DNA of 41,208 nt. Origin: Teseptimavirus T7. Shown in pieces: positions 5,824-7,277 of this stretch; positions within the stretch are counted from its first letter, which is position 1, and each line of letters begins with the position of its first letter. The notes under the pieces are model-generated. The model was not told the origin of the DNA and did no database searches. It saw only the letters and a program-made list of their open reading frames with translations. Both the position numbers and the translations under genes were made by a program. The stretch lies in the sequence record PP384397. One strand, 5' to 3'.

Positions 5824-5844
5824 CGCCAAATCAATACGACTCAC

Positions 5845-5904
5845 AAACACGTGGCAAACATTCCAAACCGGAGCCATACAGTACAAAGCACTCTTAGGCC
5901 TCTG
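5845..5904 (+). other. Synthetic 60-nt linker block of unknown origin (parses as three 20-mers)
   Basis: aaacacgtggcaaacattcc / aaaccggagccatacagtac / aaagcactcttaggcctctg; neither T7 nor recognisable vector sequence. Confidence 0.6.
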
Positions 5905-6044
5905 TACCCACGCCGAAACAAGCGCTCATGAGCCCGAAGTGGCGAGCCCGATCTTCCCCATCGGTGATGTCGGCGATATAGGCGCCAGCAACCGCACCTG
6001 TGGCGCCGGTGATGCCGGCCACGATGCGTCCGGCGTAGAGGATC
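5905..6044 (-). pseudogene. tetA: Truncated tetA fragment from pBR322-derived backbone (pET-type vector scar), antisense
   Basis: Reverse complement reads ggatcctctacgccggacgcatcgtggccggcatcaccggcgcc..., the pBR322 tet region at its BamHI site, encoding ...[42 protein letters not shown]; followed by the BglII junction gatcgagatctcgatcccgcgaaat of pET vectors. Confidence 0.75.
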
Positions 6045-6065
6045 GAGATCTCGATCCCGCGAAAT

Positions 6066-6088
6066 TAATACGACTCACTATAGGGAGA
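6066..6088 (+). promoter_or_regulatory. T7 RNAP class III consensus promoter (vector-derived phi10 copy, no lac operator)
   Basis: taatacgactcactatagggaga followed by gene-10 leader ccacaacggtttccctctagcaataattttgtttaactttaagaaggagatatacc. Confidence 0.93.
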
Positions 6089-6119
6089 CCACAACGGTTT
6101 CCCTCTAGCAATAATTTTG

Positions 6120-6144
6120 TTTAACTTTAAGAAGGAGATATACC
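6120..6144 (+). promoter_or_regulatory. Gene-10 translational leader and RBS (aaggag) with NcoI site at the start codon
   Basis: tttaactttaagaaggagatatacc directly upstream of ATG 6145; ccatgg spans the ATG. Confidence 0.85.
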
Positions 6145-6855
6145 ATGGTGAGCAAGGGCGAAGAAGATAACATGGCCATCATCAAGGAGTTCATGCGCTT
6201 CAAGGTGCACATGGAGGGCTCCGTGAACGGCCACGAGTTCGAGATCGAGGGCGAGGGCGAGGGCCGCCCCTACGAGGGCACCCAGACCGCCAAGCTGAAG
6301 GTGACCAAGGGTGGCCCCCTGCCCTTCGCCTGGGACATCCTGTCCCCTCAGTTCATGTACGGCTCCAAGGCCTACGTGAAGCACCCCGCCGACATCCCCG
6401 ACTACTTGAAGCTGTCCTTCCCCGAGGGCTTCAAGTGGGAGCGCGTGATGAACTTCGAGGACGGCGGCGTGGTGACCGTGACCCAGGACTCCTCCCTGCA
6501 GGACGGCGAGTTCATCTACAAGGTGAAGCTGCGCGGCACCAACTTCCCCTCCGACGGCCCCGTAATGCAGAAGAAGACCATGGGCTGGGAGGCCTCCTCC
6601 GAGCGGATGTACCCCGAGGACGGCGCCCTGAAGGGCGAGATCAAGCAGAGGCTGAAGCTGAAGGACGGCGGCCACTACGACGCTGAGGTCAAGACCACCT
6701 ACAAGGCCAAGAAGCCCGTGCAGCTGCCCGGCGCCTACAACGTCAACATCAAGTTGGACATCACCTCCCACAACGAGGACTACACCATCGTGGAACAGTA
6801 CGAACGCGCCGAGGGCCGCCACTCCACCGGCGGCATGGACGAGCTGTACAAGTAA
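6145..6855 (+). CDS. mCherry: mCherry red fluorescent protein (codon-optimised, GC-rich)
   Basis: ORF track 6145..6855, 236 aa [45 protein letters not shown]...[40 protein letters not shown]...[13 protein letters not shown]; M-Y-G chromophore triad; G/C at most third codon positions. Confidence 0.97.
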
Positions 6856-6906
6856 CTCGAGCGAGCTCCCGGGGGGGGTTCTCATCATCATCATCATCAT
6901 TAATAA
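6856..6906 (+). other. Untranslated linker-His6 tag (LERAPGGGS-HHHHHH) in frame with mCherry but downstream of its TAA stop
   Basis: ctcgagcgagctcccggggggggttct catcatcatcatcatcat taataa; XhoI, SacI, SmaI sites and a G8 run; reporter ORF ends at TAA 6853..6855. Confidence 0.85.
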
Positions 6907-6950
6907 AAGGGCGAATTCCAGCACACTGGCGGCCGTTACTAGTGGATCCG
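6907..6950 (+). other. Cloning-vector polylinker remnant (EcoRI, EagI, SpeI, BamHI)
   Basis: aagggcgaattccagcacactggcggccgttactagtggatccg resembles a TOPO-type cloning vector polylinker. Confidence 0.7.
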
Positions 6951-7007
6951 GCTGCTAACAAAGCCCGAAAGGAAGCTGAGTTGGCTGCTGCCACCGCTGA
7001 GCAATAA

Positions 7008-7055
7008 CTAGCATAACCCCTTGGGGCCTCTAAACGGGTCTTGAGGGGTTTTTTG
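7008..7055 (+). terminator. T7 Tphi transcription terminator (vector-derived second copy)
   Basis: ctagcataaccccttggggcctctaaacgggtcttgaggggttttttg; GC stem-loop plus T-run; same as native copy at 25434..25481. Confidence 0.9.
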
Positions 7056-7115
7056 AAAGGGGCCGTCAATATCAGAAATAAGACGACGACCCTCGAACGA
7101 TGATGCTCACTCTCG
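7056..7115 (+). other. Synthetic 60-nt linker block of unknown origin (parses as three 20-mers)
   Basis: aaaggggccgtcaatatcag / aaataagacgacgaccctcg / aacgatgatgctcactctcg; not T7, not recognised vector. Confidence 0.6.
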
Positions 7116-7126
7116 ATAGAGGGACA

Positions 7127-7166
7127 AACTCAAGGTCATTCGCAAGAGTGGCCTTTATGATTGACC
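7127..7166 (+). promoter_or_regulatory. RNase III processing hairpin R1.1
   Basis: actcaaggtcattcgcaagagtggcctttatgattgacc; conserved T7 RNase III hairpin motif. Confidence 0.6.
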
Positions 7167-7176
7167 TTCTTCCGGT

Positions 7177-7199
7177 TAATACGACTCACTATAGGAGAA
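7177..7199 (+). promoter_or_regulatory. T7 RNAP promoter phi1.1B
   Basis: taatacgactcactataggagaa. Confidence 0.9.
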
Positions 7200-7204
7200 C
7201 CTTA

Positions 7205-7277
7205 AGGTTTAACTTTAAGACCCTTAAGTGTTAATTAGAGATTTAAATTAAAGAATTACTAAGAGAGGACTTTAAGT
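7205..7277 (+). promoter_or_regulatory. AT-rich element of the T7 primary replication origin region
   Basis: ttaactttaagacccttaagtgttaattagagatttaaattaaagaattactaag, AT-rich, immediately downstream of phi1.1B. Confidence 0.5.

What the first reader, a model, noticed from the sequence alone, without database searches (positions are those of the whole stretch)
5831..7277. phi1.1A promoter is split by the insertion in the primary origin region
Wild-type T7 has two tandem class II promoters (phi1.1A, phi1.1B) followed by an AT-rich stretch upstream of gene 1.1, forming the primary replication origin. Here the upstream half of phi1.1A (caatacgactcac) is at 5831..5844 and the downstream half (atagagggacaa) at 7116; only phi1.1B (7177..7199) is intact next to the AT-rich element. 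The vector-derived promoter at 6066 lies about 1.1 kb upstream and is separated by a terminator. One T base of the original promoter appears to be missing at the junction.
Basis: partly seen in the sequence, partly recalled or inferred. Interest (0 to 1): 0.6.

Follow-up and report, generated by a model that had tools for sequence, protein, structure and literature searches.

The report
Engineered mCherry insert splits T7 promoter
The window is a published laboratory-built phage T7 (T7_mC-g1-o, PHEIGES study) in which a 1,271-base mCherry reporter cassette was placed by primer design inside the phi1.1A promoter next to the main replication origin, so the feature is real but man-made, already on record and apparently of little consequence for the phage.

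Summary
Apart from two parental changes reported by the authors, the window is the T7 reference V01146 with a 1,271-nt cassette (5845..7115) in place of one base, T5844, which is position -4 of promoter phi1.1A.

- **What remains of phi1.1A:** positions -17..-5 lie at 5832..5844 and positions -3 onward start at 7116. Neither junction hybrid scores as a T7 promoter.
- **What is untouched:** phi1.1B (7177..7199), the AT-rich element (7200..7277) and the R1.1 hairpin are base-for-base wild type.
- **Origin of the junctions:** both match the published primers gp1-oho1-as and gp1-oho2-s of the PHEIGES paper (Nat Commun 2024, PMC10933291). That paper lists the phage as T7_mC-g1-o, GenBank PP384397. 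The missing T is a one-base gap between the two primer annealing sites, not a mutation.
- **Cassette identity:** the same cassette sits 100% identical after gene 17 in PP384395.
- **Function:** not tested here. Published data show a viable phage. The three reporter phages all lyse cultures about 6-11 min after wild type. A sister phage lacking phi1.1B and the AT-rich element is also viable.

Verdict: a correct reading of an engineered, already published genome, and of low interest.

The parts
3172..5823 (+). Gene 1 (T7 RNA polymerase). Its stop codon TAA is at 5821..5823, 21 nt upstream of the insertion point.
   Evidence: Annotation of AY264774 and V01146; start and stop codons checked.
5832..5844 (+). 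Remnant of promoter phi1.1A, positions -17..-5 (the polymerase-binding half), now followed by synthetic sequence.
   Evidence: Alignment to V01146. Matrix score of the binding half is unchanged at 22.2 bits, but the initiation half scores -17.2, giving a total of 5.0 against 34.6 for wild type.
5845..5904 (+). oho1, a 60-nt synthetic orthogonal overhang used for in vitro assembly.
   Evidence: Identical to the 5' part of primer oho1-mcherry-s and to the reverse complement of the gp1-oho1-as tail in Supplementary Data 2 of PMC10933291.
5905..6065 (+). Plasmid backbone upstream of the T7 promoter (a pBR322 tet-region fragment as carried by pET/pIVEX-type vectors).
   Evidence: Matches to tet(C)-flanking sequence in many plasmids over cassette positions 61..200/304. 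The paper names the template plasmid T7p14-mCherry.
6066..6088 (+). Cassette T7 promoter (phi10 consensus, +1 at 6083), followed by the gene 10 leader and the RBS AAGGAG at 6132..6137.
   Evidence: Zero mismatches to the consensus. The 84-nt stretch 6060..6143 matches T7 22881..22964 with one mismatch at 6109. PP384395 annotates it as 'T7 promoter added for mCherry cassette'.
6145..6855 (+). mCherry coding sequence (236 aa plus stop).
   Evidence: Translation; annotated as mCherry in PP384395 and PP384393.
6948..7055 (+). Second copy of the T7 terminator Tphi. The 15-bp hairpin is at 7015..7050 and the U-run extends to 7055.
   Evidence: 108/109 identity to T7 24102..24210; hairpin predicted.
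7056..7115 (+). oho2, a 60-nt synthetic orthogonal overhang.
   Evidence: Identical to the 5' tail of primer gp1-oho2-s.
7116..7124 (+). Remnant of phi1.1A, positions -3..+6 (ATAGAGGGA). The -4 T of the wild type is absent.
   Evidence: The annealing part of primer gp1-oho2-s starts exactly here. The right hybrid scores -8.7.
7118..7170 (+). R1.1 RNase III processing hairpin. The sequence is intact but now abuts the junction.
   Evidence: Fold z = -3.2; sequence identical to V01146. Its identity as R1.1 comes from my own knowledge of T7 (Dunn and Studier 1983).
7177..7199 (+). Promoter phi1.1B, intact, +1 at 7194.
   Evidence: 37.0 bits; annotated in V01146 at 5923.
7200..7277 (+). AT-rich element of the primary origin (73% A+T, GC minimum 25% at 7210..7269). 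It holds a GGGTC primase-type site on the minus strand at 7219..7223. Gene 1.1 starts at 7278.
   Evidence: a GGGTC site within the AT-rich cluster is mentioned in PMC12839067.

Best explanation
The window is the synthetic phage genome T7_mC-g1-o, which the PHEIGES paper lists as GenBank PP384397. It was built by assembling PCR fragments in vitro.

The designers wanted an mCherry cassette 'downstream of gene 1'. They placed the two T7-annealing primer ends at ...GCCAAATCAATACGACTCAC and ATAGAGGGACAAACTCAAGG..., which lie inside the 23-bp promoter phi1.1A and leave a one-base gap. As a result, a 1,271-nt cassette replaces the T at -4. The cassette consists of a 60-nt orthogonal overhang, plasmid backbone, a phi10 promoter and leader, mCherry, Tphi and a second 60-nt overhang.

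Shown here:
- phi1.1A is destroyed as a promoter.
- phi1.1B, the AT-rich element, the primase-type site and R1.1 are unchanged.
- No compensating change exists anywhere else in the genome.

Inferred:
- The core of the primary origin (one promoter plus the AT-rich element) still fires from phi1.1B.
- Secondary origins provide a back-up if it does not.
- Class II transcription of genes 1.1-1.3 now comes from phi1.1B, plus read-through of the leaky Tphi from the strong cassette promoter.
- The net cost to the phage is small and mostly that of carrying the cassette.
For: **Identity of the construct**
- Primers gp1-oho1-as and gp1-oho2-s reproduce both junctions to the base.
- The 1,271-nt cassette is 100% identical in PP384395, where it sits after gene 17.
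- The rest of the genome equals V01146 except for an A insertion at 1896/1897 and A22629G. These are exactly the two parental differences the authors report.
- The sample-to-accession table lists T7_mC-g1-o as PP384397.
- The gene 17 design drops 15 nt at its junction, so non-seamless junctions are normal for this design.

**Loss of phi1.1A:** matrix scores are 5.0 and -8.7 for the two hybrids, 34.6 for wild-type phi1.1A and 26.5 or more for every real promoter.

**Small functional cost**
- The phage was recovered, sequenced and shown to lyse E. coli B.
- In the Fig. 2d source data the non-fluorescent group peaks in OD at about 1:23. The three fluorescent groups peak at about 1:29-1:34 and all clear the culture.
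- T7_mini, from the same study, lacks phi1.1B, the AT-rich element and genes 1.1-1.8 and is viable.
- Replication can start at secondary origins such as phiOR and phi6.5 when the primary origins are deleted (PMC8373140, citing Rabkin and Richardson 1988).
Against: - The GenBank record PP384397 is not in the searchable collection, so identity rests on primers, cassette, parental markers and the accession table, not on a direct record-to-window comparison.
- No replication measurement exists for this phage.
- The TXTL titre after assembly was lowest for the gene 1 locus: 5e6 PFU/ml, against 6e7 and 2e8 for the other two. A locus-specific cost would produce this, but the standard deviations are as large as the means and the fragment sets differ.
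- Wells in the lysis source data are not labelled by phage, and inocula may not have been equal.
- That one promoter plus the AT-rich element suffices for origin function comes from my memory of the Richardson laboratory's work. I could not retrieve those papers.
Confidence: 0.93

Rival explanations
1. The split of phi1.1A is functionally important. Losing one of the two tandem origin promoters, and placing Tphi 140 nt upstream of phi1.1B, weakens firing of the primary origin or class II expression. This phage would then replicate noticeably worse than the same cassette at other loci.
For: - Lowest TXTL titre of the three loci: 5e6 against 6e7 and 2e8 PFU/ml.
- If plate rows follow the figure order (B = gene 1), this phage gives the weakest mCherry signal, roughly a quarter of group C at 2:40.
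- Tandem promoters improved T7 RNAP-primed replication in a cell-free system (PMC12796468).
Against: - Standard deviations of the titres equal the means, and assembly efficiency is confounded with fragment design.
- All three fluorescent groups lyse within about 5 min of each other at peak OD, and the slowest decline is in group D, not B.
- phi1.1B and the AT-rich element are untouched.
- T7 lacking those elements altogether is viable.
- Secondary origins exist.
Confidence: 0.12
2. The insertion arose naturally: T7 growing on a host with a pET-type plasmid recombined with it through T7-promoter homology and picked up plasmid DNA.
For: The insert contains pET/pIVEX-type backbone, a phi10 promoter and Tphi, which share 84 and 108 nt of homology with T7. 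The left junction lies inside a T7 promoter.
Against: - The junctions are not at promoter or terminator homology. They are at two 60-nt synthetic orthogonal sequences that equal published primer tails.
- The identical 1,271-nt unit, with the same tails, occurs at a different locus in PP384395.
Confidence: 0.01
3. The split promoter or the missing T is an assembly or sequencing artefact, such as a chimeric contig of phage and plasmid reads or a homopolymer or indel error.
For: Single-base deletions are a common sequencing error. Phage preparations from plasmid-bearing systems can contain plasmid reads.
Against: - The one-base gap is predicted exactly by the two primer annealing sequences.
- The T lies in CACTATA, not in a homopolymer.
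- Genome length fits exactly: 39,937 + 1 - 1 + 1,271 = 41,208.
- The phage fluoresces, so the cassette is in the phage.
Confidence: 0.02

Closest known systems
T7_mC-g1-o (GenBank PP384397), PHEIGES study, Levrier et al., Nat Commun 2024 (PMC10933291)
   Same: Both junctions equal the published primers. The cassette is identical to that of sister records. Both parental markers are present (A insertion at 1896/1897 and A22629G). The length is consistent with the design.
   Different: Nothing was found to differ. The record itself could not be fetched for a direct comparison. The paper calls the site 'downstream of gene 1' and does not mention phi1.1A or the origin (0 occurrences of 'phi1.1' and of 'origin of replication').
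T7_mC-g17-o (PP384395) and T7_mC-g10-o (PP384393), sister constructs
   Same: PP384395 carries the same 1,271-nt cassette with the same oho1 and oho2 tails, and PP384393 matches it through cassette position 1,211. Both come from the same parental T7.
   Different: The insertion sites are after gene 17 (15 nt dropped) and after gene 10A, where the native Tphi region is reused. Neither touches phi1.1A or the origin.
T7_mini (PP384394)
   Same: Same study and parental stock, and it also alters the primary-origin region.
   Different: It is the reciprocal lesion. phi1.1A is intact, but part of R1.1, phi1.1B, the AT-rich element and genes 1.1-1.8 are deleted. It is viable, which shows the origin core is dispensable for plaque formation.
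Wild-type T7 primary origin (phi1.1A, phi1.1B, AT-rich element; Saito et al. 1980; Romano et al. 1981; Fuller and Richardson 1985; Rabkin and Richardson 1988)
   Same: phi1.1B, the AT-rich element, the GGGTC site and gene 1.1 are base-identical to V01146.
   Different: phi1.1A is split and lacks -4 T. A class III promoter, a reporter gene and Tphi now lie between gene 1 and the origin.

Membership tests
T7 RNA polymerase promoter (23-bp, -17..+6), applied to phi1.1A in this window | Contiguous binding domain (-17..-5) and initiation domain (-4..+6, TATA then a purine start) matching the 17 natural promoters. | tested here: not met
   The left hybrid CAATACGACTCACAAACACGTGG scores 5.0 bits (binding half 22.2, initiation half -17.2). 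The right hybrid scores -8.7. The weakest natural promoter scores 26.5 and wild-type phi1.1A scores 34.6.
T7 RNA polymerase promoter, applied to 6066..6088 and 7177..7199 | The same 23-bp pattern. | tested here: met
   39.9 bits (identical to the class III consensus) and 37.0 bits (identical to wild-type phi1.1B).
T7 primary origin of replication | At least one T7 promoter directly upstream of the AT-rich element. | tested here: met
   phi1.1B at 7177..7199 abuts the 73% A+T stretch 7200..7277, base-identical to V01146.
T7 primary origin of replication | Tandem pair phi1.1A plus phi1.1B, as in the wild type. | tested here: not met
   phi1.1A is split by 1,271 nt and lacks -4 T.
T7 primary origin of replication | Initiation of bidirectional DNA synthesis at this site in infected cells. 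| not testable with these tools
   This needs replication-start mapping. Only viability and culture lysis are on record.
PHEIGES construct T7_mC-g1-o | Left junction is the reverse complement of primer gp1-oho1-as and right junction is primer gp1-oho2-s. | tested here: met
   Annealing parts lie at 5825..5844 and 7116..7135. The tails lie at 5845..5904 and 7056..7115.
PHEIGES construct T7_mC-g1-o | Parental stock markers: A insertion after 1896 and A22629G relative to V01146, with no other change. | tested here: met
   These are the only differences outside the junction, as stated by the authors.
PHEIGES construct T7_mC-g1-o | Identity to GenBank PP384397 over the full length. | not testable with these tools
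   The record is absent from the searchable collection. The supplementary file shows only the truncated start of the sequence.

The most novel reading that the evidence does not exclude
This phage may be an accidental phi1.1A-null mutant. The loss of one of the two tandem origin promoters, together with a terminator placed just upstream of phi1.1B, would measurably lower primary-origin firing or class II expression. That would explain the lowest assembly titre, and possibly the weakest reporter signal, of the three loci. The existing strain would then be a ready tool for testing why T7 keeps two promoters at its origin.
Probability: 0.12. Interest if true: 0.3.

Novelty: already known. Interest (0 to 1): 0.08.

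Why it matters
It matters little for biology, because the feature is a design by-product in a published synthetic genome.

It has modest practical value. Users of this strain or of these primers should know three things.
- 'Downstream of gene 1' actually means inside phi1.1A.
- One native base was lost.
- The R1.1 processing hairpin now starts 2 nt from a synthetic junction.

Comparisons of reporter output between the three insertion loci are therefore not purely position effects. For a genome scan, the main lesson is that the window is an engineered sequence and should be flagged as such.

Tried and rejected
- **Natural plasmid capture and assembly artefact:** both rejected on the primer match.
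- **Hidden replacement promoter:** a weight-matrix scan of both strands found none in 5824..7277.
- **Compensatory mutations:** a whole-genome comparison found none.
- **New sigma-70 promoters or other RNA families at the junctions:** the consensus scan found 0 promoters. It also missed Tphi, which the fold and BLAST do show. Rfam gave only one sub-threshold chance hit.
- **PP384397:** the record is not in the collection.
- **Classic origin papers:** PMC319735, PMC349738 and PMC3195405 are not held. Statements about the minimal origin therefore rest on a secondary citation and on my own knowledge.
- **Lysis-time comparison from the Fig. 2d source data:** wells are not labelled by phage. Only assignment-free statements are made, and 'B = gene 1' is a guess from figure order.
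- **First literature search:** keywords found nothing relevant. An accession search found the paper.
- **File access:** loci fetched together in one turn did not reach the Python sandbox. V01146 was fetched again on its own.

Full report
**What is in the sequence**

Reading 5700..7500 shows the end of T7 gene 1, with its TAA stop at 5821..5823. CAATACGACTCAC follows at 5832..5844, then unrelated sequence, and ATAGAGGGACAAAC at 7116 onward. From there the familiar T7 sequence continues:
- phi1.1B at 7177..7199;
- an AT-rich stretch;
- the gene 1.1 start at 7278.

A consensus search finds 10 near-consensus T7 promoters in the window against none in 100 shuffles. One perfect class III consensus lies at 6066..6088.

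**Check against the reference**

A three-way alignment with V01146 and a base-by-base comparison of the whole genome give a simple result.
- Window 1..5844 equals V01146 1..5843 plus one extra A at 1896/1897.
- Window 7116..41208 equals V01146 5845..39937 with the single substitution A22629G (window 23900).
- The only reference base not accounted for is T5844, position -4 of phi1.1A. In its place are 1,271 nt (5845..7115).
- The lengths agree: 39,937 + 1 - 1 + 1,271 = 41,208.

**Is phi1.1A really gone, and is anything else there?**

I built a weight matrix from the 17 annotated T7 promoters of V01146 and scored every position on both strands.
- Seventeen sites score 26.5-39.9 bits. These are the 16 remaining native promoters and the cassette promoter.
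- The next best score anywhere in the window is 6.9.
- The left junction hybrid scores 5.0. Its binding half is unchanged at 22.2 bits and its initiation half scores -17.2.
- The right hybrid scores -8.7.
- Wild-type phi1.1A scores 34.6.

No other promoter-grade site lies in 5824..7277. The parental strain does have phi1.1A, because T7_mini, built from the same stock, carries it intact.

**What the insert is**

Megablast against phage records finds the whole 1,271 nt at 100% identity in PP384395. That record is 'Mutant Teseptimavirus T7 clone recombinant T7_mCg17o', where the insert lies after gene 17 and is annotated 'T7 promoter added for mCherry cassette' and 'mCherry'. Most of it is also in PP384393 (T7_mCg10o).

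Plasmid matches show mCherry and pBR322 tet-region backbone of the kind found upstream of the T7 promoter in pET/pIVEX-type vectors.

The anatomy of the cassette is as follows.

| Window coordinates | Element |
|---|---|
| 5845..5904 | 60-nt synthetic tail (oho1) |
| 5905..6065 | plasmid backbone |
| 6066..6088 | phi10 promoter, followed by the gene 10 leader and RBS |
| 6145..6855 | mCherry |
| 6883 onward | untranslated polylinker with a His6 remnant |
| 6948..7055 | copy of Tphi; 15-bp hairpin at 7015..7050 plus U-run |
| 7056..7115 | 60-nt synthetic tail (oho2) |

**Where it comes from**

An accession search leads to the PHEIGES paper (Levrier et al., Nat Commun 2024, PMC10933291). The authors inserted an mCherry cassette 'downstream of gene 1, downstream of gene 10 and of gene 17'. 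In the leak-free version they added orthogonal sequences to the primers.

Supplementary Data 2 lists the two relevant primers.
- gp1-oho1-as is a tail plus gtgagtcgtattgatttggc. The reverse complement of that annealing part is GCCAAATCAATACGACTCAC, window 5825..5844.
- gp1-oho2-s is a tail plus atagagggacaaactcaagg, window 7116..7135.

The two tails equal 5845..5904 (as reverse complement) and 7056..7115. The annealing parts leave exactly one base of T7 between them, the -4 T.

The missing T and the split of phi1.1A are therefore written into the primer design. The gene 17 design likewise drops 15 nt, so seamless junctions were not a design goal.

The authors report that their T7 stock differs from V01146 by an A insertion after 1896 and by A22629G. 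These are the only other differences found in the window. Supplementary Data 6 assigns T7_mC-g1-o to PP384397. That record is not in the searchable collection, so this last step is by inference.

The main text never mentions phi1.1A or the origin.

**How it most likely works**

Shown:
- phi1.1A no longer exists as a promoter.
- phi1.1B, the AT-rich element (73% A+T, GC minimum 25%), the GGGTC primase-type site on the minus strand at 7219..7223 and the R1.1 hairpin at 7118..7170 (z = -3.2) are unchanged.

Inferred from established T7 biology (Richardson laboratory work on the primary origin, recalled from memory, and the statement in PMC8373140 citing Rabkin and Richardson 1988):
- T7 RNA polymerase transcripts from a promoter next to the AT-rich element prime leading-strand synthesis.
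- phi1.1B alone should therefore keep the origin working.
- If it did not, secondary origins (phiOR, phi6.5) would take over.

Transcription of genes 1.1-1.3 should now come from phi1.1B plus read-through of Tphi from the strong cassette promoter. Tphi is known to be leaky, since genes 11 and 12 depend on read-through in the wild type (my own knowledge). Host-polymerase early transcripts must now cross the cassette and Tphi to reach genes 1.1-1.3.

The retained -17..-5 half-site may still bind polymerase without productive initiation. This is untested.

**Published phenotype**

- **Recovery:** the phage was recovered, sequenced and shown to lyse E. coli B with mCherry release.
- **TXTL titres:** after assembly they were 5e6 (gene 1), 6e7 (gene 10) and 2e8 (gene 17) PFU/ml. 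The standard deviations are as large as the means and the fragment sets differ.
- **Non-fluorescent group:** in the Fig. 2d source data, group A9-A12 shows no fluorescence and so is wild type. It peaks in OD at about 1:23 and clears by about 1:42.
- **Fluorescent groups:** the three of them peak at about 1:31 (B), 1:29 (C) and 1:34 (D), and all clear the culture. D declines the slowest. Fluorescence at 2:40 is about 10-30 (B), 75-120 (C) and 50-65 (D).
- **What follows without knowing the well map:** the wells are not labelled by phage. Whatever the assignment, the phi1.1A-split phage lags the wild type by only about 6-11 min at the culture level and lies within about 5 min of the other two insertion phages. 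Inocula are not stated, so this is a rough bound.
- **Reciprocal lesion:** T7_mini from the same study deletes phi1.1B, the AT-rich element and genes 1.1-1.8, keeps phi1.1A, and is viable.

**Comparison with what is known, and verdict**

This is not a new element. It is a documented engineered genome. As a T7 promoter, phi1.1A fails the membership test here. As a primary origin, the locus keeps the core features (one promoter plus the AT-rich element) but not the tandem pair.

The one point not spelled out by the authors is that their 'downstream of gene 1' site lies inside phi1.1A and drops a base. That is a useful caveat for anyone comparing reporter output between loci, but not a discovery.

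- Novelty: already known.
- Interest: low (0.08).
- Most novel reading not excluded: the split measurably weakens origin firing or class II expression, which would make this strain an accidental phi1.1A-null. Probability is about 0.12, with modest interest if true.

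Noticed in passing
window 7110..7123: The 3' end of the synthetic tail (CUCUC) can pair with GAGGG of the retained phi1.1A/R1.1 sequence. This forms a 5-bp mini-hairpin that replaces the lower stem of the R1.1 RNase III hairpin in the minimum-energy fold of 7056..7185. The centroid structure keeps R1.1. Processing between the cassette and gene 1.1 mRNA might be affected.
   Followed up: partly
window 6109: There is a single A-to-C difference from the native phi10 leader (T7 22930). 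It turns the XbaI site TCTAGA of the usual pET-type leader into TCTAGC, and is the only mismatch in the 84-nt duplicated leader.
   Followed up: yes
window 6060..6143 vs 24152..24235, and 7015..7055 vs 25441..25481: The cassette duplicates the phi10 promoter and leader (84 nt) and Tphi (about 108 nt) as direct repeats about 18 kb from the native copies. Recombination between them would delete essential genes, so it should not yield viable deletants. It could still cost some progeny.
   Followed up: no
window 1896..1897: This is the extra A relative to V01146. The paper describes it as lying 'in the gene 0.7'. In V01146 coordinates it lies upstream of the annotated gene 0.7 CDS (2021..3100), within the possible gene 0.6B region. 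AY264774 is also 39,938 nt, and its gene coordinates shift by +1 relative to V01146 between gene 0.6A and gene 0.7. The extra base is therefore probably the real wild-type sequence.
   Followed up: partly
window 6856..6947: An untranslated vector polylinker remnant follows the mCherry stop codon. It includes a His6-coding run (CATx6 from 6883) and two stop codons, typical of a pIVEX-type vector.
   Followed up: no
L006 (PP384394, T7_mini) 800..1000: T7_mini cuts through the R1.1 hairpin (after ...TGGCCTTTATGA) and removes phi1.1B, the AT-rich origin element and genes 1.1-1.8, yet it is viable. It is the reciprocal lesion to the window's.
   Followed up: yes
PMC10933291 Source Data, sheet Figure 2d: One fluorescent group (B5-B8) gives several-fold less mCherry signal than the other two, although its lysis timing is similar. 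If B is the gene 1 locus, as the figure order suggests, the same cassette is expressed much less from the class II region than from the class III region.
   Followed up: partly
L001 (PP384395) 1500/2772 junctions: The gene 17 insertion design drops 15 native bases (TTGGTAAATCACAAG) between the gene 17 stop codon and the downstream primer site.
   Followed up: yes
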